A stretch of 15,401 bases of DNA from a virus. Lineage: Duplodnaviria > Heunggongvirae > Uroviricota > Caudoviricetes. The translations under genes were made by a program, and so were the position numbers. Positions within the stretch are counted from its first letter, which is position 1. The number at the start of each line of letters is the position of its first letter. This document shows positions 3,412 through 15,401 of the stretch, piece after piece. A model generated the notes under the pieces. It was not told the DNA's origin. It ran no database searches and was given only the letters and a program-made list of their open reading frames with translations. The stretch lies in the IMG/VR virus record IMGVR_UViG_2547132277_000010; one strand, 5' to 3'.

Positions 3412-3795
3412 TTACCTGGCTGTCAGTTGTTTTGATTTCCGGTAGCCTGCTGCGTAAAGAGCTACATTTGGAAGACATACACCAGTTTCTGGTTGCTTAT
3501 GTCCAAACTCATTCGCGTACACAATGGCCGCTCGCTCCAGATTGCGTCTGTATTCTTTCTGTTGCCAGATCACGTCCTGTGCCATGAACTTAATTGGCTT
3601 AGCGTCTTCTATGCGCTCAGGCGTTTCGTGAGTACCTTTAGCCTGAATCTGCGCTCTGCTTAGAGTAGGGCGGTGTAATACTTCTGAACTTATTGCTTCT
3701 TCGCGGGCCAGCACGCCGTTAGCTAATGCCTTTGCCTTTAAACGCTCACGACGACGAGAACGTGAATTGCCTTTGAACTGAGTTCTGCGTGTCAT
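3412..3795 (-). CDS. N: N-type transcription antitermination protein (P22 gp24-like), 127 aa
   Basis: AGGAGG lies 5 nt upstream of the ATG at 3795. N-terminal arginine-rich motif (NSRSRRRERLKAKALA) and C-terminal LPNVALYAAGYRKSKQLTAR, matching the P22 gp24 C-terminus LPGVALYAAGHRKSKQITAR as I recall it. Confidence 0.85.
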   Translation of the reverse strand: MTRRTQFKGNSRSRRRERLKAKALANGVLAREEAISSEVLHRPTLSRAQIQAKGTHETPERIEDAKPIKFMAQDVIWQQKEYRRNLERAAIVYANEFGHKQPETGVCLPNVALYAAGYRKSKQLTAR

Positions 3796-3960: not shown

Positions 3961-3975
3961 GCGCTTTGTCAGCGC
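3961..3975 (-). promoter_or_regulatory. nutL boxB hairpin (minus-strand RNA GCGCUGACAAAGCGC)
   Basis: Plus strand gcgctttgtcagcgc. On the leftward transcript this is a 4 bp GC stem with loop UGACAAA, identical to the P22 boxB as I recall it. Lies between the candidate pL and N. Confidence 0.6.
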
Positions 3976-4044
3976 CGTAGATTCTTGCTTGAATCGTTGT
4001 ATATTCACCGCCCTGGTGAGTAGTGCGTCCTGCTGATGGCGATA

Positions 4045-4083
4045 ATAATGAACCAATAGTTCGATATTATCAAGAACTATTGG
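4045..4083 (-). promoter_or_regulatory. candidate pL promoter (-35 TTGATA at 4073..4068, 17 bp spacer, -10 CATTAT at 4050..4045) overlapped by a 10 bp inverted repeat operator CCAATAGTTC-N11-GAACTATTGG
   Basis: Hexamers and inverted repeat (4053-4062 / 4074-4083) read from the sequence. The core AGTTC-N11-GAACT recurs in the cI/cro intergenic region as CAGTTC-N11-GTACTG. Confidence 0.4.
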
Positions 4084-4256
4084 TACGAATTTTTGTGATT
4101 TATTAACTCTGCGAAGTATGATTTTGATATATAAGGAAATTTATTTTTGTAAATGTGGCTGATGAAGGTTATGCGGCAGGGATCAGAACTGCATGGTTTA
4201 GCGAATTACATCAATAAATACAATTGGTTATGTGTTTTTTTTGGGGCGAGAGGCAA

Positions 4257-4286
4257 AGAAAACCCGGCGCTGAGGCCGGGTTTTTC
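4257..4286 (-). terminator. bidirectional intrinsic terminator (AAAA-AACCCGGC-GCTGAG-GCCGGGTT-TTTTT) ending the cI / accessory-gene operon
   Basis: 8 bp GC-rich stem with runs on both sides, placed directly after the stop of the 258 aa ORF. Confidence 0.65.
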
Positions 4287-5062
4287 TAGGCTACCAGAGA
4301 CTCAATCCAAGAGTCTCTGGTATGGAATGGCAACACTCGTGCGGTATCATTAAATAGTAGTGATAGTTGCTGTAGCTCAGGTGTTAACCCATCGCTGTCA
4401 ACTATTACAAATCTATTGTTTATGTCAGGAACGACCTGACTTAAGTCAACAATCTTCCCAACTGTTGAGTGGGCAGTATTCCATCCCTTACTGCTGGCAA
4501 GGCTTACCGTAAACCCGCGTTTTGGTGGTATTAGTCGAGACTCATTCCTTAGCGTTAACGGAACAGTAATGTTATGCCCACTAATACCTTTCACTTTTTC
4601 CTTTAAGGCTAGTCGCTTCCCAAGCCCTGCTGATTTTAAGTAACTGATTACACATTTTTCGAACTTATCGTCTTTGACCTCAGCATACCAATCAGCAGTT
4701 TGGGCGGATGCAAGAATCCCACCACGAATAACATTTGCAGTTACCTGTCCAACGGACGACTCATCTGCCCACGCAGATATCTCTCCAGAGTCATTTAATG
4801 AAATTCCTTGCGAAGCGAGTGATGACCTGATCAGATCAATTTTCTTTTTAGTCAGGTGGATGCCGCGTGATTCAATATTCATCAATGTATCGCAGTAGTC
4901 TGTAACCCTATACTGACCACTCATCTCTTGAACGAATACACTTATCTGCTCACAATCATCGTAGTATGTGAATGGACTAATAACGCGCAGCAACGTGTCG
5001 CTCATTGGGTGGCATTCAAACCCGAGCTTAGATATGACTGTTGAACACGTTACATTTCCCAT
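4286..5062 (-). CDS. hypothetical protein, 258 aa; distal gene of a two-gene accessory cassette in the rexAB-equivalent position
   Basis: ATG at 5062 lies 10 nt upstream of the stop of the 180 aa ORF (13 nt overlap); AGGT is upstream. No family recognised and no obvious transmembrane segments. The locus is visibly more AT-rich than flanking phage DNA. Confidence 0.75.
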   Translation of the reverse strand: MGNVTCSTVISKLGFECHPMSDTLLRVISPFTYYDDCEQISVFVQEMSGQYRVTDYCDTLMNIESRGIHLTKKKIDLIRSSLASQGISLNDSGEISAWADESSVGQVTANVIRGGILASAQTADWYAEVKDDKFEKCVISYLKSAGLGKRLALKEKVKGISGHNITVPLTLRNESRLIPPKRGFTVSLASSKGWNTAHSTVGKIVDLSQVVPDINNRFVIVDSDGLTPELQQLSLLFNDTARVLPFHTRDSWIESLVA

Positions 5063-5592
5063 GATAACTGACCTGATTTATCTTGATTAGGTAAAGGTGG
5101 GCTGCCTTCATATATGATATTAAGCGCCTCGCAAAAATAATTCCAGTAGCCAAAAAAATCATCTGGCTTGATGTTCGTTTCAAGCTTAAGTGCAATTTCT
5201 TCCCCAGCTGATTCGAAGTACATGTGATAGTGAGGACCTCGAGCCACCTCAACAAAATCTGGATGGTTCACTATAGATTTATTACGGTGTGGCTTGTTAT
5301 CCGCAGGGTACGGATCAAGCGCGTAAATGCGCCTGTCATGAAGAAACATCACAAATGAAATCTTCACTATATCCACCCCTTCAACGATAGGAGGACGCCA
5401 GTGAAGCATAAATCTTATGCCTGTGATTGGGTTGCCAATTTCATCAAAAGCTTTGAGATCCAATTTAAACCAGATTGGGGTTCGTCCCTCACTTCCGGTC
5501 CATGTAACTCCGCTAAAAGTTACTTTTTTCAAGCGAGTAATAGCTTGGTCAACCTCTTTCTGGGTAGGCTTAAAGTCGCCTTTTTTAGCCAC
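5050..5592 (-). CDS. hypothetical protein, 180 aa; proximal gene of the accessory cassette downstream of cI
   Basis: Longest ORF begins at GTG 5592 with no nearby in-frame ATG; GGTGA lies about 9 nt upstream. Same strand as cI, 97 bp downstream of its stop. No family recognised. Confidence 0.7.
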   Translation of the reverse strand: MAKKGDFKPTQKEVDQAITRLKKVTFSGVTWTGSEGRTPIWFKLDLKAFDEIGNPITGIRFMLHWRPPIVEGVDIVKISFVMFLHDRRIYALDPYPADNKPHRNKSIVNHPDFVEVARGPHYHMYFESAGEEIALKLETNIKPDDFFGYWNYFCEALNIIYEGSPPLPNQDKSGQLSWEM

Positions 5593-5689
5593 TGATTCGT
5601 ATCACCATGAAAGTTATTGTTAATACCTGTGCTTCTTGTCACCCAAACGTCTCTTCAGGCCACTGGCTATCAGCTATGTGACGATGAAG

Positions 5690-6397
5690 TCACGAACTTT
5701 TCAGCCACTCCCTTGCCTCGATGTCATCCAGATGGCGAGATTGCTTCAGAATACCAGCCACATACTCCACCTTTGCTACTTGATGATAAGGCAACGTTAT
5801 TGGCCTATGGTCCTGGTTGATGCTTGTAAACTGGTATTCTCCGTCTCTGTCATAGCCAAGAACTTTGATCATGTTGTGTCCTTCAACGGTTCTGACAAAC
5901 ACCTCATCACCCGGGAATACTTTGGTGTTAGGCTCAATGAGTACATATTCTCCTGATTTTATTCTAGGCCACATGCTGTCTCCTTTCACACGAAGACCAA
6001 AGGCATCTGGATCATCGCTATAAATCTTGAGCCACCCATCGCGCTCTTCGGTCATCTCGATGGCACCATCAACACCAAGAATTGCCTCACCAACCACGCG
6101 CACTAACCCTTTTTTTAATTTGCCAACAAATGAAAGAGTATCTTCATCATTCGCTCCATTTAACGAAGTGCCGTGCTGAAGCCAAACAACATCAACGTTT
6201 AGAAATTTCGCAAGCGCATTCATTTTTTCCTGACGCGGTAAAGACTCAGCATTAAACCACTTGCTAACGCCTTTGGACGAAAGAGAAAGGGCACGGGCTA
6301 TAGCCATTCCCCTACCATGTTCATCAAGACCAGCTTCTTTACAGGCTTGCGCTAGCCGCTGGGCGAATTCTTTGCGCACTTTTTCATTCTGAACCAT
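5690..6397 (-). CDS. cI: CI-type prophage repressor (N-terminal HTH, C-terminal LexA-like S24 peptidase domain), 235 aa
   Basis: HTH region MAIARALSLSSKGVSKWFNAES and C-terminal GDSMWP...VLIEP motifs typical of autocleaving repressors. Divergent from the cro-like gene. No Shine-Dalgarno before the ATG, consistent with a leaderless pRM transcript as in lambda. Confidence 0.9.
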   Translation of the reverse strand: MVQNEKVRKEFAQRLAQACKEAGLDEHGRGMAIARALSLSSKGVSKWFNAESLPRQEKMNALAKFLNVDVVWLQHGTSLNGANDEDTLSFVGKLKKGLVRVVGEAILGVDGAIEMTEERDGWLKIYSDDPDAFGLRVKGDSMWPRIKSGEYVLIEPNTKVFPGDEVFVRTVEGHNMIKVLGYDRDGEYQFTSINQDHRPITLPYHQVAKVEYVAGILKQSRHLDDIEAREWLKSS

Positions 6398-6404
6398 GAG
6401 TACG

Positions 6405-6457
6405 ATACTAAAGCACTTGCAAAAACTTTCAGTTCAATCATAATGTGTACTGAAAGT
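6405..6457. promoter_or_regulatory. OR/pR/pRM switch region: candidate pR (-35 TTGCAA 6417-6422, 16 bp spacer, -10 CATAAT 6439-6444) with operator-like inverted repeats
   Basis: Inverted repeat ACTTTCAGT (6425-6433) / ACTGAAAGT (6449-6457) and the AGTTC-N11-GnACT arrangement shared with the pL region. A weak pRM -10 (TAGTAT) would place the start at the cI ATG. Confidence 0.5.
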
Positions 6458-6475
6458 ACGAAAAAGGATATTCCT

Positions 6476-6703
6476 ATGCAAAATCTTGATGAGCCGATTA
6501 AAGGTGTCGGCATCCCTGAAGTTGCGAAGGCTTGTGGAGTTAGCGAAAGGGCTGTCTATAAGTGGCTCAAAAACGGCTTCCTCCCTAAGACTGAGTTTTT
6601 TGGGAAAACGAAATACGCATCAAAAATCGAAGAGATTTCTGGTGGCAAATATCAAGCAAGCGAAATGCTTGAAATAAGCAAAAAGAACCTTCTGGCTGCA
6701 TAA
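6476..6703 (+). CDS. cro: Cro-like HTH regulator, 75 aa (start at the internal ATG 6476, not the track's 6443)
   Basis: AAGGA lies 8 nt upstream of ATG 6476. HTH VAKACGVSERAVYKWLKNG. First rightward gene, divergent from cI. Confidence 0.75.
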   Translation: MQNLDEPIKGVGIPEVAKACGVSERAVYKWLKNGFLPKTEFFGKTKYASKIEEISGGKYQASEMLEISKKNLLAA

Positions 6704-6710
6704 GTAACAC

Positions 6711-6756
6711 CGCTATTTTCACAATGGACATTCGTCCTACGTCGCTGACAAAGCGA
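6711..6756 (+). promoter_or_regulatory. nutR: boxA-like CGCTATTTT (6711-6719) and boxB hairpin UCGCUGACAAAGCGA (6742-6756)
   Basis: The boxB loop UGACAAA is identical to the nutL boxB loop. Located directly after the cro stop, as in lambdoid phages. Confidence 0.55.
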
Positions 6757-7183
6757 GCCCCAAGATATCTCCTCTCTGGTTATCTGCATCATCGTCTGCC
6801 TGTCATGGGCTGTTAATCATTACCGGGATAACGCCATCGCCTACAAAGCCCAGCGCGACAAAGCCACATCCATCATCGCTGACATGCAGAAGCGTCAACG
6901 TGATGTAGCAGAACTTGACGCCAGATACACAAAGGAGCTTGCTGATGCTAACGCGACTATCGAAAGTCTCCGCGCTGATGTTTCTGCTGGTCGTAAGCGC
7001 CTGCAAGTCGCCGCCACCTGTGCAAAGTCAACGACCGGAGCCAGCAGCATGGGCGATGGAGAAAGCCCAGGACTTACAGCAGATGCTGAACTCAATTATT
7101 ACCGTCTCAGAAGTGGAATCGACAGGATAACCGCGCAGGTTAACTACCTGCAGGAGTACATCAGGACTCAGTGCCTGAAATAA
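6749..7183 (+). pseudogene. Rz: Rz (i-spanin) homolog truncated at the 5' end; an internal ATG at 6884 could give a 99 aa product lacking the membrane anchor
   Basis: Translation [22 protein letters not shown]...RQRDV...YTKELADA...AGRKRL...QC closely parallels lambda Rz (from memory). The frame opens only after a TGA at 6746-6748; the first ~9 codons and any ATG/GTG/TTG start are absent. Confidence 0.75.
6945..7130 (+). CDS. Rz1: Rz1 (o-spanin) outer-membrane lipoprotein embedded in the +1 frame of Rz, 61 aa
   Basis: AGGAG lies 8 nt upstream of ATG 6945. Signal-peptide-like N-terminus with lipobox LVVSAC followed by a proline-rich mature part ([12 protein letters not shown]), the hallmark Rz1 architecture. 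Confidence 0.75.
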
Positions 7184-8505: not shown

Positions 8506-10749
8506 ATGGCAGAAAAAAAGATGACTGACTGGCATCGCAAGGTGCTGTGCAACTTTGATAATGCCTGGTCAGCAACGCAGGATATGCGTGAGCAGATTAT
8601 TGAAGCTCAACGTTTCGTCCGGGTGTCCGGCGCACAGTGGGAAGGCAGCACAAACGCTGGTTACTCATTTGATGAAGGCAGGTTTGAGCATTACCCGCGC
8701 TTTGAGCTGAATAAGATTGCCCGTGAATGTGATCGCATCATTGGCGAGTATCGACAGAATCGCATCAGCGTTAAATTCAGGCCGAAGGATGACAAGGCAT
8801 CGGAAGCGTTAGCCGAAAAGATGAACGGCAAATTCCGCGCTGACTATCAGGAAACATCCGGTGGCGAAGCGTGTGATAACGCATTTGATGATGCTGTAAC
8901 GGGCGGATTCTGTTGTTTCCGCATGTGTGCCGATTACGAAGATGAAATGGACCCAAGTAACGAGCAGCGACGCATCAGCCTTCTTCCTGTTTACGACCCG
9001 GCCACATGCGTCTTCTTCGATCAGGACAGCAAGCAATATGACCGCTCTGATGCTATGTGGGCTATGGAAATGTTCTCCATGACGCCTAAAGCGTTCGAGG
9101 CTGAATACCCTGATTCCATCGCGGCAAGCCTTTCTCGTGATGACACTGGCACTCAATATGACTGGTCAACTCCTGATGCTATCTATGTTGGTCGCTACTA
9201 CGAAGTTCGCATAGAGAAGGTGAAGCTCACAGCATGGCGTAACCCTGTTAGCGGAGAAACGGCAATCTATGATGAAGATCAAATCAAAGATATTGTCGAC
9301 GAGCTGACCGATGGTGCATTCGAACTGATTGGCGAGCGAACGGTGAAGAAGCGCCGCGTTTATTGCGGTCTTCTGTCTGGCGCTGAATGGCTGGAAGAAC
9401 CGAAGCGTATTCCGGGCGAACATATTCCTCTCATCCCGGTATATGGGCGTCGATCATTTGTTGATAATCAGGAGCGAATCGAAGGTCACGCAGCAAAAGC
9501 GATGGATGCACAGCGTCTTGAGAACCTGATGGTTTCCATGATTGCAGATAACGCTACTCAAGCTGGCGGTGATGGCATTCCTGTAGTTGATGTTGACATG
9601 ATTCCTGGTCCTCTCGCCACTCATTGGGCGGAGCGCAACAAAAAGCGCCCGGCGTTCCTGCCGATGGTCAGTCTGAAAAACAAAAACGGAGATATTACTG
9701 CGCAGGCTCAGGTCAGCAGTTATACGCCTCCGACACAAATGCCTCCAGCTCTTGCCGGACTATTGCAGTACACCGGAACGGCTATTCAGCAAATTACAGG
9801 TGCGTCGCAGCTTGAGAACATGCCGAGCAACGTCGCTACCGATACCGTTGATAGCATCTTTAACCGGATGGACACGCAGTCCTATATCTACATGGACAAC
9901 ATGGCTAAATCCATGCGCCGTGCTGGCGTCGTGTGGCTTTCTATGGCTCGTGAAGTCTATGGCAGTGATGCGCCGATGCGTATCGTTAATGAGGACGGCA
10001 GCGATGACGTGGCGCTGATGACTGGTGAAGTGGTTGACCGTCAGACAGGGCAGGTTATCGCGCTTAATGACCTTTCGCAGGGTAACTATGAAGTGACTGT
10101 CGATGTTGGCCAGTCGTTCGCTACTCGCCGTGATGCAACGGTTAAGTCGTTACTTTCCATGCTGGCACTTATCTGGCCACAACGGGCGTTCATCCACTGG
10201 CGCATTCAACTGGCAAAAAGTCTGACCGAGTATAATCGGGTCTATCAATCTGCATTCTCACCGAACTTACTCGAACGCCCGCGTCTGGAAAGCCATCTAC
10301 AAAAACTCCTGACCGATGCCGTGAAAATGCGTGGGCTGATTGCGCCCGCCAGCAAAGAAACCCGTATTCCAAAATCGATATATGAAGGTATCCAGACCAT
10401 TAATCGCAATCTGGTTTGTATGCTGGAGTTGCAAATCAATGCATACTGGGCCACGCGCCCCAGCCATTTCGTGTTATTGAACGCGCAAAAACTTCGTGAT
10501 ACCCAGCATATGATGCAGCAAATACTGCTGAGCCTTGTTCATGCGCTGTACGAAGGTAATCCGCAGCCGGTTTTTGCCAATACGGAAAAATTGAACGATG
10601 CTGTGGAAGAGCTGCGTCAGTTGCTGAATAACCACCATGACCTGAAGGTTGTGGAAACACCAATCTATGGTTATGTGTGGCTGAACATGGAAACGGCACA
10701 TCAGCTTGAGTTGCTATCGAATCTGATTTGCCGGGCCTTGCGCAAATAA
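8506..10749 (+). CDS. P22 gp1-type portal protein, apparently chimeric: portal-like to about residue 555, then ~190 residues of unrelated sequence
   Basis: N-terminal FDNAWSATQDMREQ..., central RRVY...GEHIPLIPVYG and ...VDVGQSFATRRDATVKSLLSML parallel P22 portal segments (from memory). The C-terminal tail (from about 10170) lacks the Q/E/A-rich portal barrel and looks like a different soluble domain. Confidence 0.75.
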   Translation: MAEKKMTDWHRKVLCNFDNAWSATQDMREQIIEAQRFVRVSGAQWEGSTNAGYSFDEGRFEHYPRFELNKIARECDRIIGEYRQNRISVKFRPKDDKASEALAEKMNGKFRADYQETSGGEACDNAFDDAVTGGFCCFRMCADYEDEMDPSNEQRRISLLPVYDPATCVFFDQDSKQYDRSDAMWAMEMFSMTPKAFEAEYPDSIAASLSRDDTGTQYDWSTPDAIYVGRYYEVRIEKVKLTAWRNPVSGETAIYDEDQIKDIVDELTDGAFELIGERTVKKRRVYCGLLSGAEWLEEPKRIPGEHIPLIPVYGRRSFVDNQERIEGHAAKAMDAQRLENLMVSMIADNATQAGGDGIPVVDVDMIPGPLATHWAERNKKRPAFLPMVSLKNKNGDITAQAQVSSYTPPTQMPPALAGLLQYTGTAIQQITGASQLENMPSNVATDTVDSIFNRMDTQSYIYMDNMAKSMRRAGVVWLSMAREVYGSDAPMRIVNEDGSDDVALMTGEVVDRQTGQVIALNDLSQGNYEVTVDVGQSFATRRDATVKSLLSMLALIWPQRAFIHWRIQLAKSLTEYNRVYQSAFSPNLLERPRLESHLQKLLTDAVKMRGLIAPASKETRIPKSIYEGIQTINRNLVCMLELQINAYWATRPSHFVLLNAQKLRDTQHMMQQILLSLVHALYEGNPQPVFANTEKLNDAVEELRQLLNNHHDLKVVETPIYGYVWLNMETAHQLELLSNLICRALRK

Positions 10750-10920
10750 TTCCTAAACTTCAGAATCATCTTGCTGCTGCTTCGATTCAGCAAGGATAAA
10801 GGGTATGATAGTGAAAAGGGATAAAAGCATTGTCATCTGCGGCAGCTATGAGTAATGTTGGCCCTAACGAATAGCGGTTGCTTAAACGAATCCGACTCTC
10901 ACATTATCAGGGGTATAAAA

Positions 10921-11250
10921 ATGGAAACTACCAAGCCTTCATTCCAGGACGTACTGGAATTTGTTCGTCTGTTCCGTCGTAAGAACAAACTGCAACGTGA
11001 AATTCAGGACGTTGAGAAAAAGATCCGTGACAACCAGAAGCGCGTCCTGTTGCTGGACAACCTGAGCGATTACATCAAGCCAGGGATGAGCGTTGAAGCA
11101 ATCCAGGGCATCATCGCCAGCATGAAAGGTGACTATGAAGATCGCGTTGACGATTACATCATCAAAAATGCCGAGCTCTCCAAAGAACGCCGCGATATCT
11201 CCAAAAAGCTGAAAGCTATGGGCGAAATGAAAAACGGCGAAGCGAAGTAA
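10921..11250 (+). CDS. yeeX: YeeX-like DUF496 protein, 109 aa (start at the internal ATG 10921)
   Basis: The translation [28 protein letters not shown]... matches E. coli YeeX as I recall it; the length is 109 aa from this start. Confidence 0.7.
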
Positions 11251-11263
11251 TTCCCGTTTTATT

Positions 11264-11292
11264 CAATGAGGGTTGCCCGGCAACCCTCATTG
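11264..11292 (+). other. perfect 13 bp stem-loop (CAATGAGGGTTGC / CCG / GCAACCCTCATTG) 14 nt after the yeeX stop
   Basis: Read directly from the sequence. No clean U-run follows, so it may be a structured 3' end or a small repeat element rather than a canonical terminator. Confidence 0.4.
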
Positions 11293-11350
11293 CTCATTGA
11301 TTCTTATCTGTGTATCACCGTCATCATTTTCATCTGAGAACCAATCGAAA

Positions 11351-11707
11351 TTAACAACAGCCTTCTTCTGTATGCAGCAAGGCAAAAAGTTCTGTAACTC
11401 CATTGTTATTAACTGCACTGGTTACTAACACGTTGTGCGCTCCAGCTTCCCGTAACCAACTTTTCACCAAAGATATTTGTTCCATGCCGGCTAAATCTGC
11501 TTTGGTTACTACTCCAATGACAGGGTGATTCATGGCCCGGTAGGGCGTTTTTACCTCTAATTCCTGCTTCAGCGCTGAGATTCCTGCTTGTTGCCGGAAA
11601 AGCAGGCACCTGCCGTCTGAACGGTATCGATCCGGAAGCGTATCTGCGCCATATTCTGAGCATACTGCCGGAATGGCCCTCCAACCGTGTTGACGAACTC
11701 CTGCCAT
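11351..11707 (-). pseudogene. fragment of a YeeP/YkfA/YfjP-type GTPase (C-terminal portion only)
   Basis: Contains VIGVVTKADLA...HNVLVTSAVNNNGVTELFALL, like the G4/G5 end of this GTPase family. The N-terminal part is junk and a second overlapping frame (11409..11726) is also open, indicating a degraded gene. Confidence 0.35.
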
Positions 11708-12147
11708 GGAACGTAGTTCTCACCAATAAATAAGCGTCAATACGGTGCTCCGTTGACGCTTACTTTAATCCGTTTTCTGAGCTTAGATTTTTCTGTTCCT
11801 ACCCAGACCGTGGATTTGGAATTCATTTTTTGTCAGGTCAATGCTAATCGTTAAAACGGCCATAACGCACCTCCACTGGAAGGTTTATCAGTAATATCCT
11901 ACCGTTGCTTCATGGTCGGGGCGTCCATTCCATTATTATCGGTTTTCCTTTCTGTTTATAAATGAAAACGCCAGCTGTATTCAGGCTGGCGTCAGGGGAA
12001 ATGAAGCCTGTTGAGTGAGATTCACCGGTTCTGGTGCAGAAGCTGCAGATGGCGCAGGGTAAGGACATCTTCTCTTGCCTGCTTAATACAGGACAACAGT
12101 GCTGTTTCTGTGGTTAATGGCACTATACCCTGCATCACTGCATTGTC

Positions 12148-12342
12148 TTACAGCAACTGGTGAGGGCTGGCATAAGTTGCCGGTGTTTCGGTAGAGTCAC
12201 GGTCATCCACCACGCGGAGTGAATAACCTTTTTCAGCGGCCTTATTAATCAGTTCAGTGATATTAACACCATCAATGTCAACGACAATGTGCCCCATATC
12301 CAGCGCCTGTACGTTAACGCTGTCGGCTTCCAGTGTCATCAT
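12148..12342 (-). CDS. yeeW: YeeW-like small protein, 64 aa
   Basis: Its ATG overlaps the TGA of the restored cbtA reading frame (ATGA). Position and size match the gene that follows cbtA in CP4-44-type islands. Confidence 0.55.
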   Translation of the reverse strand: MMTLEADSVNVQALDMGHIVVDIDGVNITELINKAAEKGYSLRVVDDRDSTETPATYASPHQLL

Positions 12343-12712
12343 TTCGCCTCCGGATACTTACCCAGGGTAATGTTATTTACCGTTCTGTAATTGTCGCGGG
12401 TCATCAGGCCGGTCGCCCTGCGAGCCCGGAGGATATCGATGCTGTTTATTAACTGAGAGCGGGTACAGGCGCTGAATCCCGGCTGGTCGGTAGCACCAGC
12501 GCGTATTTTTCCACGAGAAAGTTCACCGCATCACACAGTGAAATGCCTGCCTCAATATGCTGCTCAATCACACGTTCATCGGCAAAAGGTGTGTCATTCA
12601 GTGTGAGGCCATAGTGCTGGTCCAGCAGTCGGGACAGCAGTATCTGCCAGATTTCAACAGGAGACGGGCGAGAACTGGTCGCCTGCCCGGGTAATACAGG
12701 TAATGTTTTCAT
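12339..12712 (-). pseudogene. cbtA: CbtA (YeeV)-family type IV toxin gene disrupted by a 1-base frameshift near 12493
   Basis: The track ORF gives 87 aa ending ...[19 protein letters not shown]. The next frame continues [46 protein letters not shown], matching the YeeV C-terminus as I recall it. One base appears to be missing after GTGC. Confidence 0.7.
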
Positions 12713-12800
12713 ACTGAAGATTTTCCTGATATGCAGATATAAAAATGGAAAAGTGGCGTGGTGAAAACACCAGGCCGTAGCAGAAGGCTATTCTGGAGAG

Positions 12801-13169
12801 TTAATTTTTCATTTCGGGCGTCGGATAAACAGCCAGATAAACGTAACCACAACTGCTGAGGGTATCGGCTTTGCAGGTCAGCCCTTTTGCATACAGCGTG
12901 ACGGTATGCTGATGGCGGGGATTCAGTTCACCGCTGGTGAGCATGAGTTCCAGTTGTTTCATCAGCAGCGGAAAGGCCTGGTCCAGGTGGTACGCATCTG
13001 CATCGCTGAACAGGCCTCTGATACCGGCGCGGTCGGCAAGGTAATGCAACCGGTTACCCTCCTGCACCAGACGTGCCCCGAAACAGGGCGTCACGGTGCA
13101 GGGCAGCCCCCACCAGGGGCGGTCGTGATTGTCGTCGGGAAGTGTTGTCCCGGGGAGTGTGTCTGACAC
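12801..13169 (-). CDS. cbeA: CbeA (YeeU)-family type IV antitoxin, 122 aa
   Basis: MSDTLPGTTLPDDNHDRPWWGLPCTVTPCFGARLVQEGNRLHYLADRAGI... matches YeeU/YfjZ-family antitoxins from memory. Starts at GTG 13169 with AAGGA upstream. Confidence 0.85.
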   Translation of the reverse strand: MSDTLPGTTLPDDNHDRPWWGLPCTVTPCFGARLVQEGNRLHYLADRAGIRGLFSDADAYHLDQAFPLLMKQLELMLTSGELNPRHQHTVTLYAKGLTCKADTLSSCGYVYLAVYPTPEMKN

Positions 13170-13242
13170 GATAAAATCCTTACAGAAAATCGGCTAAGAA
13201 TGGTCCGGTAGTGGCGATAATTCTGCTCATCAGAATTCCCAC

Positions 13243-13464
13243 TCAGTTCAGGGTGACGCTCATCAGCCGGACATACGGACCAAAACTGTCCTTACGACGT
13301 TCAGCAAACACGGCCAGCACACCGGGAATATCCTGCACTTCACGACCGGTATACGCTTCAGCACTGCCATGCCAGCGGTATTTACCGGTACAGAACGGAA
13401 AAAGACGGGATGTCGGATGTTGTTGGTGAATACGCATGGCTTCACCACGGGTGATAATTTTCAT
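13243..13464 (-). CDS. DUF987 protein (YeeT/YpjJ/YkfH family), 73 aa
   Basis: MKIITRGEAMRIHQQHPTSRLFPFCTGKYRWHG... is typical of this family. GAGGT lies upstream of the ATG. Confidence 0.8.
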   Translation of the reverse strand: MKIITRGEAMRIHQQHPTSRLFPFCTGKYRWHGSAEAYTGREVQDIPGVLAVFAERRKDSFGPYVRLMSVTLN

Positions 13465-13526
13465 AATGGGATACCTCTGAAGACAGAAGATAAAAGTGAA
13501 AACAGGTGTGATGTGGTTGTGAAGGG

Positions 13527-14003
13527 TTAAAGCAGACCATGTTCGGCAAAGGAGAAAACCTGGTTGCCACCGACTATCAGATGGTCCGGCACCCGGATAT
13601 CCACCAGGCCCAGTGCCTGTACCAGACGTTCCGTGATAAGGCGGTCTGCCTTACTGGGTGTGACTTCACCGGAGGGGTGATTGTGTGCCAGCACCACGGC
13701 AGCGGCATTGTGGTACAGGGCGCGTTTAATCACTTCCCGGGGATGGACTTCCGTGCGGTTGATGGTGCCGGTAAAGAGGGTTTCACCGGCAATCAGTTGA
13801 TTCTGGTTATTCAGATACAGCACCCGGAATTCTTCACGCTCCAGTCCCGCCATGTTCAGAATCAGCCATTCCCGTGCTGCACGGGTGGAGGTGAAGGCCA
13901 CGCCGGGTTCATGAAGATGGCGGTCCAGGGTTTTCAGGGCCCGTTGAATGAGGCTGCGCTCGCCGGGCGTCATCTCTCCGGGCAGAAAGGAAAGTTGTTG
14001 CAT
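13527..14003 (-). CDS. RadC-like JAB/MPN domain protein (YeeS/YfjY family), 158 aa from ATG 14003
   Basis: Contains the HNHPSG motif and surrounding RadC-like sequence. GGAGAG lies 7 nt upstream of ATG 14003; the track's ATG at 14018 has no RBS. Confidence 0.85.
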   Translation of the reverse strand: MQQLSFLPGEMTPGERSLIQRALKTLDRHLHEPGVAFTSTRAAREWLILNMAGLEREEFRVLYLNNQNQLIAGETLFTGTINRTEVHPREVIKRALYHNAAAVVLAHNHPSGEVTPSKADRLITERLVQALGLVDIRVPDHLIVGGNQVFSFAEHGLL

Positions 14004-14018
14004 TGTGCTTCTCTCCAT

Positions 14019-14498
14019 TCAGTCGATGATGCGCATAATGGCGCTGCATTCCGGATGCTGCAGGGCGTAATCCCGCAACCGGTAATAATGGACCGTCATG
14101 GCATAATTCTCCGTACGACAGGCATGATGACTGTACGTCATCAGACAGGCGGCAATACCGGCGGCTTCCGGGCTCATTTCTGCGCGGTTACCGTTCATGG
14201 CATTGAACAGTACCCATGTTTCGTCATCATCGTCATCCGGTTCGGGTGCCATAAATGCCCCGCCGTTGTTCAGGGTGTACAGATTCCAGATACCACCGCA
14301 GTAGTCTTCGCACAGACGGTCCATCCAGCCGAAGACACGGGGCTCCAGGGTCACCCACTGTGGAATGAGGCCAAAATGCTGCGGCCAGAAGCTGATGCGC
14401 TGTTCATCAGGGACGAGGCTGGCAACCAACTGAGGCGGATTATTCTCTGGTGTTGTAGCTGAATAAATTGTGGGGGTATTCTGAGAAACGGTTTTCAT
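14019..14498 (-). CDS. antirestriction protein (YfjX/YafX-type), 159 aa
   Basis: AAGGAG lies 7 nt upstream of the ATG. Acidic stretch PEPDDDDDETW and the C-terminal region are typical of this family in CP4-type islands. Confidence 0.8.
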   Translation of the reverse strand: MKTVSQNTPTIYSATTPENNPPQLVASLVPDEQRISFWPQHFGLIPQWVTLEPRVFGWMDRLCEDYCGGIWNLYTLNNGGAFMAPEPDDDDDETWVLFNAMNGNRAEMSPEAAGIAACLMTYSHHACRTENYAMTVHYYRLRDYALQHPECSAIMRIID

Positions 14499-14579
14499 GA
14501 GATAACTCCTTAAATAACAAATAAATGTGTGTTTTTCAGGAACGAAAGCTGAATGATTCCCTCACTCAGGGAAACGGCA

Positions 14580-15401
14580 TCAGCGCAGGCTCTCCAGCAT
14601 CGTTTCTGCCATCACCCACAATGCGCGATTGAGCTTAATGTCGGTATCAATGCTGTGAATGGCACGGGTATGGATACGTTTTCCTTTTGCACTGCGACCG
14701 GAAATCCCGCCTTTCAGCATATTCTCTTGGATGGTCTGATATGCGCTCCACAGGTCCTTACCGTAATCCTCCCGGCGTCGCGGCGTCAGAATGTCGGCGG
14801 TGGTGACGGGCTGATGTTCGTCACCATAACGGTAAGTCAGTGCCGCCTGTGCCAGCGCCTGGCGTGCCGGTGGCGGCAGGACCAGCGACTGCATGGCATC
14901 ACGCTTCTCCTCTATCCGGTCAAACACGCCCACCACCTCGTAAGCCCCTTCGATAACTTTCTCCACTACATTTCCCCGGTGTGGAACACGCACTTCCCCC
15001 AGAGACTGGCCACAGACGCACCCGTTCTGGCAGACGAACCTGAAGTAACCCGGCAGCATCTGGTAGCTGGAGGTACCGTCATGAGAGTTGAGCAGAATAA
15101 TTTCAGGGACATGTTCTCCGTTTATCTCTCCGGCCCGCCGCAGACGCAGCATGTGTTTTGTGTATCCCCGGCGGCCCGGGTCGCGCACACGGGTCTGGCA
15201 GGCGAAGAACGGCTGAAAGCCTTCCCGCTGCAGATTTTCCAGGACGGTAATGGTGGGAATGTACGCATACCGTTCACTGCGGGAGGTGTGCCGGTCTTCC
15301 CCAAAAATACTGGGTACATGGCGTATCAGTTCTTCATGTGTCAGCGGACGGTCACGGCGTATCTGGTTTGCAGCATAACCAAAACGACTTGCTAATCGCA
15401 T
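14580..15401 (-). CDS. DUF932 protein (YfjQ/YafZ family), 273 aa; its ATG is the last three bases of the window
   Basis: Length and sequence character match the DUF932 proteins that precede the antirestriction/RadC/TA module in CP4-type islands. Confidence 0.8.
   Translation of the reverse strand: MRLASRFGYAANQIRRDRPLTHEELIRHVPSIFGEDRHTSRSERYAYIPTITVLENLQREGFQPFFACQTRVRDPGRRGYTKHMLRLRRAGEINGEHVPEIILLNSHDGTSSYQMLPGYFRFVCQNGCVCGQSLGEVRVPHRGNVVEKVIEGAYEVVGVFDRIEEKRDAMQSLVLPPPARQALAQAALTYRYGDEHQPVTTADILTPRRREDYGKDLWSAYQTIQENMLKGGISGRSAKGKRIHTRAIHSIDTDIKLNRALWVMAETMLESLR

What the first reader, a model, noticed from the sequence alone, without database searches (positions are those of the whole stretch)
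6398..6475. Immunity switch with leaderless cI and operators shared between the pR and pL regions
cI and cro diverge across a 78 bp region. A plausible pR (TTGCAA-16-CATAAT) overlaps an inverted repeat (ACTTTCAGT / ACTGAAAGT) and a CAGTTC-N11-GTACTG site. The same AGTTC-N11-GAACT core recurs as a perfect 10 bp inverted repeat (CCAATAGTTC-N11-GAACTATTGG, 4053-4083) overlapping the candidate pL, as expected for one repressor controlling both promoters. cI has no Shine-Dalgarno sequence, consistent with a leaderless pRM transcript. The operator sequence matches no lambda, 434 or P22 operator that I can recall, which suggests a distinct immunity specificity.
Basis: partly seen in the sequence, partly recalled or inferred. 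Interest (0 to 1): 0.45.

Follow-up and report, generated by a model that had tools for sequence, protein, structure and literature searches.

The report
Phage 933W immunity switch, already characterised

Summary
The region is not a new immunity type. Window 5641-6760 is 98.3% identical to phage 933W, and the cI and Cro proteins are 100% identical to those of 933W. The 933W repressor binds 15-bp symmetric sites (NGWAC-N5-GTWCN), shown by published footprinting, EMSA and in vitro selection. The window has the five known sites: OL1 4049-4063, OL2 4073-4087, OR3 6390-6404, OR2 6422-6436 and OR1 6446-6460. It misses OR3 completely. A leaderless cI transcript is plausible. cI has no Shine-Dalgarno sequence, and a TAnnAT -10 element sits 7 nt before the ATG in seven related loci. 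The 5' end was not mapped here, and no paper I could read maps it. The host prophage is defective: nutR is fused to an Rz fragment. Verdict: already known, low interest.

The parts
3412..3795 (-). N antiterminator gene, first gene of the pL operon
   Evidence: Pfam N_peptide, E 1e-15. Corresponds to 933W N at L001 540-923, offset 2872. It differs from 933W N at 8 nt, 7 of them synonymous.
3961..4027 (-). nutL, mapped from the 933W annotation
   Evidence: 933W nutL at L001 1089-1155 plus offset 2872. A 19-nt stretch, 95% complementary, pairs it with nutR (I2).
4045..4073 (-). Candidate pL: TTGATA (4073-4068), 17-nt spacer, CATTAT (4050-4045)
   Evidence: Promoter scan. The hexamers are identical in 933W. 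The transcription start was not mapped here.
4049..4063 (.). OL1, TGAACCAATAGTTCG; overlaps the pL -10 and spacer
   Evidence: Exact match to the pattern. Identical to the site annotated OL1 in phi24B record EF517298.
4073..4087 (.). OL2, AGAACTATTGGTACG; abuts the pL -35
   Evidence: Exact match to the pattern. Annotated OL2 in EF517298. It has T at position 3' and C at position 6', as PMC3317979 describes for OL2.
4259..4280 (-). tM, terminator of the pRM (cI plus cargo) transcript
   Evidence: Same sequence as the 933W tM feature at L001 1390-1411.
4286..5062 (-). Cargo gene downstream of cI, 258 aa, DUF1828
   Evidence: Pfam DUF1828, E 2.5e-10. phrog_1960. Weak PADLOC hit to PDC-M24B, E 5e-7. 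It occupies the position held by stk and its neighbours in 933W.
5050..5592 (-). Cargo gene downstream of cI, 180 aa
   Evidence: phrog_2017. Sub-threshold Pfam hit to DUF6978. Weak PADLOC hit to PDC-M24A, E 4e-4.
5690..6397 (-). cI repressor, 235 aa, with HTH and S24 peptidase domains
   Evidence: 100% protein identity to 933W cI. The 12 nt differences are all synonymous. Pfam HTH_3 and Peptidase_S24.
6390..6404 (.). OR3, TGAACCATGAGTACG; spans the cI start codon at 6395-6397
   Evidence: 933W GenBank feature oR3. The EF517298 OR3 feature contains it. Exact match to the pattern.
6405..6432 (-). pRM (pM) as annotated in 933W. The -10 candidate TAGTAT is at 6410-6405 and the -35 is weak.
   Evidence: 933W feature pM. 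The -10 keeps the form TAnnAT as five different hexamers in seven loci, always 7 nt before the A of the ATG.
6417..6444 (+). pR: TTGCAA, 16-nt spacer, CATAAT
   Evidence: 933W feature pR. Promoter scan. The hexamers are unchanged relative to 933W.
6422..6436 (.). OR2, AAAACTTTCAGTTCA; one degenerate half-site
   Evidence: 933W feature oR2. One mismatch to the pattern. PMC3317979 states that one half-site of OR2 lacks G at position 2.
6446..6460 (.). OR1, TGTACTGAAAGTACG; 933W has C at position 1
   Evidence: 933W feature oR1. Exact match to the pattern. A change at position 1 alters affinity less than 2-fold (PMC3317979).
6476..6703 (+). cro, 75 aa
   Evidence: 100% protein identity to 933W Cro. 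HTH families in Pfam. Shine-Dalgarno AAGGA at 6464-6468.
6711..6756 (+). nutR
   Evidence: 933W feature nutR at L001 4571-4616 plus offset 2140.
6766..6772 (.). Deletion joint: 933W homology ends and an Rz fragment begins
   Evidence: The alignment with 933W breaks at about 6772. Homology to Rz genes starts at 6766. Pfam Phage_lysis on 6884-7180.

Best explanation
The region is the immunity (lysis/lysogeny) switch of the phage 933W immunity group. Its sequence is intact, and it sits in a prophage that has lost its replication genes and most of its late genes. The cI repressor (HTH plus S24 autopeptidase) binds as a dimer to 15-bp rotationally symmetric operators whose conserved half-sites are G(A/T)AC at positions 2-5 and 2'-5'. 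At OR there are three sites. OR1 (6446-6460) lies just downstream of the pR -10, and OR2 (6422-6436) lies in the pR spacer and -35; both shut off pR and therefore cro. OR3 (6390-6404) lies across the cI start codon, directly next to the pRM -10, and limits the repressor's own synthesis. At OL there are only two sites, OL1 (4049-4063) and OL2 (4073-4087). They cover the -10/spacer and the upstream edge of pL and shut off N and the leftward operon. cI is transcribed from pRM together with two cargo genes, and the transcript ends at tM. The cI mRNA most likely starts at or within a base or two of the AUG, which would make it leaderless. What is shown here: the sequence identity, the site positions and their conservation. 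What is taken from published 933W work: repressor binding to these sites, non-cooperative binding, the absence of an OL3 and partial occupancy of OR3. What is inferred: the pRM, pR and pL start points, and activity of the switch in this host.
For: The DNA is 98.3% identical to 933W across cI-OR-cro-nutR. The cI and Cro proteins are 100% identical to those of 933W. All 13 nucleotide differences in cI and cro are synonymous third-position changes. The five operators coincide with the oR1-3 features of GenBank record AF125520 and with the OL1, OL2 and OR1-3 features of record EF517298. They also fit every detail given in PMC3317979: 15 bp long, positions 4-5 invariably AC, position 2 G except in one OR2 half-site, position 6 T in 7 half-sites and C in 3, and an A/T centre. 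The residues S41, K42 and K46 studied in that paper are present in the window protein. The exact pattern occurs 5 times against 0.53 expected. The 7 differences from 933W in the OR and OL control regions all avoid operator positions 2-14 and the promoter hexamers. Relatives with 71-96% DNA identity keep the half-sites and the 24-bp OR2-OR1 spacing while the operator centres vary. The absence of an OL3 and non-cooperative binding are stated in PMC5977221.
Against: Nothing in the sequence contradicts this explanation. There are three caveats. First, the primary papers that mapped the sites and promoters (PMC524892, PMC524894, PMC3133280) are not held, so the site coordinates rest on GenBank annotations and on the verbal description in PMC3317979. 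Second, if pRM starts at the ATG, the OR2 centre lies at about -32, not at -42 as in lambda, so lambda-style activation from OR2 cannot simply be assumed. Third, the prophage is defective, so the switch may be silent or unnecessary in this host.
Confidence: 0.93

Rival explanations
1. One reading: the operator is a long palindrome, AGTTC-N11-GAACT (21 bp or more), with one copy at pR and one at pL, each bound as a single unit.
For: The motif occurs at both promoters. At OL it extends to a perfect 11-bp inverted repeat (I20).
Against: The N11 spacing follows automatically when two 15-bp sites lie 24 bp apart: the right half-site ends at position 14 and the next left half-site starts at position 2. 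The model does not explain the outer half-sites, which are equally well conserved, and it does not explain OR3. Published binding studies used single 15-bp sites and found nanomolar affinity (PMC3317979). The extended inverted-repeat arms are not kept in E. coli 2013C-3033, and the 9-bp OR inverted repeat is not kept in E. coli MDK9L1, yet the half-sites are kept in both. On its own the motif is only marginally above chance.
Confidence: 0.03
2. The switch is an inert relic. The sequence is that of the 933W switch, but in this gutted prophage it is no longer expressed or selected and has no role.
For: The prophage lacks cII, O, P, Q, most lysis genes and the terminase. nutR is fused to an Rz fragment.
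Against: cI and cro have no nonsynonymous changes among 13 differences from 933W, and no operator core or promoter hexamer is changed. However, that divergence may predate the deletion. Nothing in the sequence prevents pRM-driven cI expression.
Confidence: 0.15
3. The repeats are chance matches in an AT-rich intergenic region.
For: Promoter-like hexamer pairs are not enriched in the region (8 found against 5.8 expected). The N11 motif alone is marginal.
Against: There are 5 exact 15-bp pattern matches against 0.53 expected. The sites are conserved by position in seven loci. They are identical to experimentally studied sites.
Confidence: 0.01

Closest known systems
Phage 933W (Traversvirus tv933W) immunity region: cI, Cro, OR1-3 and OL1-2
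   Same: The cI and Cro proteins are identical. OL1, OL2, OR2 and OR3 are identical, and OR1 differs only at the poorly conserved position 1. The pR and pL hexamers, nutL, nutR, tM and N are the same.
   Different: The genes between cI and tM differ: DUF1828 plus a 180-aa ORF here, where 933W has L0084, L0083, stk and L0081. Everything to the right of nutR is deleted. There are three substitutions in OR outside the operator cores (6438, 6445, 6446).
Phage lambda cI/cro switch (OR1-3, OL1-3, leaderless cI from pRM)
   Same: Divergent cI and cro with overlapping pR and pRM. Three sites at OR. A cI with HTH and S24 domains. Cargo genes co-transcribed with cI (rexAB in lambda). N/nut antitermination. 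cI lacks a Shine-Dalgarno sequence, and a -10 element lies 6-7 nt before the ATG.
   Different: The operators are 15 bp long (17 bp in lambda) and unrelated in sequence. OL has only two sites. Binding is not cooperative (PMC5977221). OR3 lies over the cI start codon and OR2 lies at about -32 from the inferred start, whereas my reading of the lambda sequence from memory gives about -19 and -42.
P22-like Salmonella phages MG40/SI5 and MS2 LVA, and an E. coli MDK9L1 prophage, which carry related switches
   Same: The same operator pattern and the same spacings: OR3 to OR2 32-33 bp, OR2 to OR1 24 bp. The same position for the pRM -10.
   Different: DNA identity across the switch is 71-88%. The operator centres and some W positions differ. 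These relatives may or may not be homoimmune with 933W.

Membership tests
933W-type lambdoid immunity switch | A cI repressor with an N-terminal HTH domain and a C-terminal S24 autopeptidase domain, of 933W specificity | tested here: met
   Pfam HTH_3 and Peptidase_S24. The protein is 235/235 identical to 933W cI, including S41, K42 and K46.
933W-type lambdoid immunity switch | A divergently transcribed cro gene encoding a small HTH protein | tested here: met
   75/75 identical to 933W Cro. HTH families in Pfam.
933W-type lambdoid immunity switch | Three 15-bp symmetric operators at OR, with conserved positions 2-5 and 2'-5' | tested here: met
   OR1, OR2 and OR3 at 6446-6460, 6422-6436 and 6390-6404. 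The description in PMC3317979 matches.
933W-type lambdoid immunity switch | Two operators at OL and no OL3 | tested here: met
   With up to 1 mismatch, only 4049-4063 and 4073-4087 match within the OL region. They are annotated OL1 and OL2 in EF517298. The absence of an OL3 is stated in PMC5977221.
933W-type lambdoid immunity switch | The repressor actually binds these sites, represses pR and pL, and autoregulates pRM | not testable with these tools
   Taken from published 933W work (PMC3317979, PMC5977221, PMC4848623). With an identical protein and identical sites the transfer is safe for binding, but expression in this host is unknown.
933W-type lambdoid immunity switch | N/nut antitermination flanking the switch | tested here: met
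   Pfam hit for N. nutL and nutR map from the 933W annotation and form a 19-nt, 95% complementary pair.
Leaderless cI mRNA (lambda pRM type) | No Shine-Dalgarno sequence before the start codon | tested here: met
   Best duplex with the anti-Shine-Dalgarno sequence is -0.2 kcal/mol, against a background median of -2.5.
Leaderless cI mRNA (lambda pRM type) | A -10 element placed so that transcription starts at the A of the AUG | tested here: met
   TAGTAT at 6410-6405, 7 nt before the A. The form TAnnAT is kept as five different hexamers at the same distance in seven loci. The element lies inside the annotated 933W pM.
Leaderless cI mRNA (lambda pRM type) | A mapped 5' end at the AUG and translation of that transcript | not testable with these tools
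   No held paper reports the 933W pRM start.
   It misses OR3 and the outer half-sites. It is a composite of adjacent operators. Its extended arms are not conserved in relatives.

The most novel reading that the evidence does not exclude
The intact 933W-immunity cassette may have been retained in a gutted prophage because it is useful to the host. It could make the cell immune to superinfecting 933W-immunity Shiga-toxin phages. It could also express, from pRM, a two-gene cargo (DUF1828 plus a 180-aa protein with weak PADLOC PDC-M24 hits) that acts as an anti-phage defence system in place of 933W stk.
Probability: 0.3. Interest if true: 0.3.

Novelty: already known. Interest (0 to 1): 0.08.

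Why it matters
The finding adds little beyond annotation. The switch is one of the best-characterised lambdoid switches outside lambda, 434 and P22, and it is present in about 8% of complete E. coli genomes. There are two modest points of practical interest. First, a defective prophage carrying an intact 933W repressor and its operators should make its host homoimmune to 933W-type Stx2 phages, which bears on the spread of Stx phages. Second, the case shows how closely spaced symmetric operators can be misread as one long palindrome.

Tried and rejected
I tried to read the primary mapping papers (Koudelka 2004, PMC524892; Tyler 2004, PMC524894; Bullwinkle and Koudelka 2011, PMC3133280; Plunkett 1999, PMC93574). 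None is held, so the promoter start sites could not be checked against experiment. A search for '933W' plus 'leaderless' found no statement about 933W cI.

I searched for the nutR-Rz junction in GTDB species representatives, using an exact 33-mer, and in complete E. coli genomes. It was not found in either, so the source genome remains unidentified. No complete E. coli genome holds more than 37% of the window in one place.

I rejected TTGCAA as a shared -35 for pRM, because the spacer to TAGTAT would be only 6 nt. I also rejected a pRM positioned so that OR2 lies at -42, because the start would then fall inside the cI coding sequence.

The operators annotated in AP004402 are placed differently (17-bp 'putative' sites, with a second set lying inside ORFs). 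I did not use them.

Full report
**Observation.** The window encodes a 235-aa ORF on the minus strand (5690-6397) and a 75-aa ORF on the plus strand (6476-6703), separated by 78 bp. The hexamers TTGCAA (6417-6422) and CATAAT (6439-6444), 16 nt apart, are there and were returned by the consensus scan. So is the inverted repeat ACTTTCAGT (6425-6433) / ACTGAAAGT (6450-6458). AGTTC-N11-GAACT occurs exactly at 4058-4078 and with one mismatch at 6431-6451. At OL it extends to a perfect 11-bp inverted repeat, 4052-4062 / 4074-4084. On its own the N11 motif is only marginally unexpected: 2 matches against 0.39 expected, with 11 of 200 shuffles reaching 2.

**Identity.** Window 5641-6760 is 98.3% identical to phage 933W and to about 150 other Stx-phage records. 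The switch itself (window 6300-6560) is found in 432 of 5426 complete E. coli genomes. The cI and Cro proteins are 100% identical to those of 933W. All 12 nucleotide differences in cI and the single difference in cro are synonymous third-position changes. Pfam gives HTH_3 plus Peptidase_S24 for cI and HTH families for Cro. The OL/pL/nutL/N side is likewise homologous to 933W up to the tM terminator.

**What the operators really are.** The 933W GenBank record annotates oR3, oR2, oR1, pM and pR. With an offset of 2140 they map to these window coordinates:

| Feature | Window coordinates | Sequence |
|---|---|---|
| oR3 | 6390-6404 | TGAACCATGAGTACG |
| pM (minus strand) | 6405-6432 | |
| pR | 6417-6444 | |
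| oR2 | 6422-6436 | AAAACTTTCAGTTCA |
| oR1 | 6446-6460 | TGTACTGAAAGTACG |

- **OL sites.** The phi24B immunity-region record independently annotates the same three OR sites. It also annotates OL1 (TGAACCAATAGTTCG) and OL2 (AGAACTATTGGTACG), which lie at window 4049-4063 and 4073-4087.
- **Published description.** Bullwinkle et al. 2012 (PMC3317979) describe the 933W site as 15 bp, rotationally symmetric about a central A/T pair and conserved at positions 2-5 and 2'-5'. Positions 4-5 are invariably A-C. Position 2 is G except in one OR2 half-site. Position 6 is T in 7 of 10 half-sites and C in the other 3. OL2 carries non-consensus bases at 3' and 6'.
- **Fit to the window.** The five window sites satisfy every one of these statements.
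- **Statistics.** The pattern NGWAC-N5-GTWCN matches exactly 5 times in the window against 0.53 expected (maximum 3 in 500 shuffles). Four of the matches are OL1, OL2, OR3 and OR1, and OR2 matches with one mismatch. The fifth exact match (13618-13632) lies in a RadC-like gene and is at chance level.

OR2 and OR1, and likewise OL1 and OL2, lie 24 bp apart start to start. The right half-site of the first operator (positions 11-14, GTWC) and the left half-site of the second (positions 2-5, GWAC) are then separated by exactly 11 nt. GTTC-N11-GAAC/GTAC is therefore a by-product of two adjacent operators. The 9-bp inverted repeat at OR exists because OR2 and OR1 share the central sequence CTTTCAG/CTGAAAG. 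The 11-bp inverted repeat at OL exists because OL2 is nearly the reverse complement of OL1.

Neither extended repeat is conserved. In E. coli 2013C-3033 the OL sites are TGAACTATTGGTTCG and AGAACCAGAAGTACG. In E. coli MDK9L1 the OR2 and OR1 sites are TGAACTATCAGTTCC and TGTACTTACGGTTCA. The half-sites, the 24-bp spacing and OR3 are kept in both.

**Conservation under divergence.** Between the window and 933W there are 3 differences in the 78-bp OR region: 6438, 6445, and 6446, which is position 1 of OR1. There are 4 differences around OL: 4037, 4039, 4065 and 4094. None touches positions 2-14 of any operator or any promoter hexamer. PMC3317979 reports that a position 1 change alters affinity less than 2-fold.

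**Promoters and the leaderless question.**
- **pR** matches the annotated 933W pR.
- **pL** is best read as TTGATA, a 17-nt spacer and CATTAT on the minus strand (4073 to 4045). OL1 covers the -10 and spacer, and OL2 sits at the upstream edge of the -35.
- **No Shine-Dalgarno sequence before cI.** The 22 nt upstream of cI pair with the anti-Shine-Dalgarno sequence at only -0.2 kcal/mol. The background median is -2.5, cro gives -5.4 and N gives -11.0.
- **pRM -10.** Directly next to OR3, the minus strand reads TAGTAT (6410-6405), 7 nt before the A of the ATG. In seven related loci this hexamer is TAGTAT, TATTAT, TACTAT, TATAAT or TATGAT, always at the same distance. That is the conservation pattern expected of a -10 element (TAnnAT).
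- **Standing of the claim.** This supports a transcript starting at or next to the AUG, as in lambda. Lambda cI is stated to be leaderless in PMC8630535 and PMC3342100. No held paper maps the 933W start, so the claim remains an inference.
- **Geometry.** With that start, OR3 spans about -7 to +8 and the OR2 centre lies at about -32. This differs from lambda, where my reading of the sequence from memory gives -19 and -42. The way OR2-bound repressor affects pRM should therefore not be assumed to copy lambda.

[quoted passage not shown] There is no OL3. Relative affinities at intact OR are 1: 13.6: 26.4 for OR1: OR2: OR3. Partial occupancy of OR3 in the lysogen keeps repressor levels low, at about 34 molecules per cell, which gives the 'hair-trigger' induction of Stx prophages (PMC5977221; PMC4848623).

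**Context.**
- **Right of nutR.** Homology to 933W stops at about 6766-6772 and an Rz fragment follows. After it come a KilA-N protein, a gp49/gp66-family protein and a P22-type portal. Then come host or CP4-44-like genes: DUF496/yeeX, CbtA/CbeA, RadC and an antirestriction gene.
- **Missing genes.** cII, O, P, Q, the holin and endolysin genes and the terminase are missing, so the prophage is defective.
- **Junction.** The junction is absent from every complete E. coli genome and from GTDB representatives.
- **Cargo.** Between cI and tM the window carries a DUF1828 gene and a 180-aa ORF in place of 933W stk and its neighbours. Both give weak hits to the PADLOC candidate system PDC-M24. The same cargo sits next to the same cI in many E. 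coli prophages.

**Verdict.** It is wrong about the operator unit and about novelty: this is the known 933W immunity specificity.

Noticed in passing
window 4286-5592 (minus strand): Two genes are co-oriented with cI between cI and the tM terminator. One is DUF1828 (258 aa, phrog_1960) and the other is a 180-aa ORF (phrog_2017, sub-threshold DUF6978). They give weak PADLOC hits to the candidate defence system PDC-M24 (B: E 5e-7; A: E 4e-4). They replace stk and its neighbours of 933W, and they recur next to the same cI in many E. coli prophages.
   Followed up: partly
window 6766-6772: This is a deletion joint: nutR is fused directly to the 3' part of an Rz spanin gene. cII, O, P, Q and the other lysis genes are absent. 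The junction was not found in any complete E. coli genome or in GTDB species representatives.
   Followed up: partly
window 6390-6436: If pRM starts at the cI ATG, the OR2 centre lies at about -32 and OR3 lies across +1. In lambda the corresponding positions are about -42 and -19. It is unclear how OR2-bound repressor could stimulate pRM at that distance.
   Followed up: no
window 4292-4322: A perfect 12-bp inverted repeat (TACCAGAGACTC, 7 nt, GAGTCTCTGGTA) lies inside the 3' end of the DUF1828 gene, at the point where homology to 933W ends.
   Followed up: no
L001 1829-1843 (933W stk gene); window 13618-13632: An additional exact match to the operator pattern (AGTACATCTAGTACG) lies inside 933W stk; that region is absent from the window. 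The window has one extra exact match (TGTACCAGACGTTCC) in a RadC-like gene, at chance level.
   Followed up: no
window 3962-3980 and 6737-6755: A 19-nt inverted repeat, 95% complementary, spans the immunity region. It corresponds to the annotated nutL and nutR sites of 933W.
   Followed up: yes
window 10855-15401: The right end of the window is not phage. It holds DUF496 (yeeX-like), a PduV/EutP-like fragment, the CbtA/CbeA toxin-antitoxin pair, RadC and an antirestriction protein, an arrangement like CP4-44. This region abuts a P22-type portal gene (8506-10749).
   Followed up: partly
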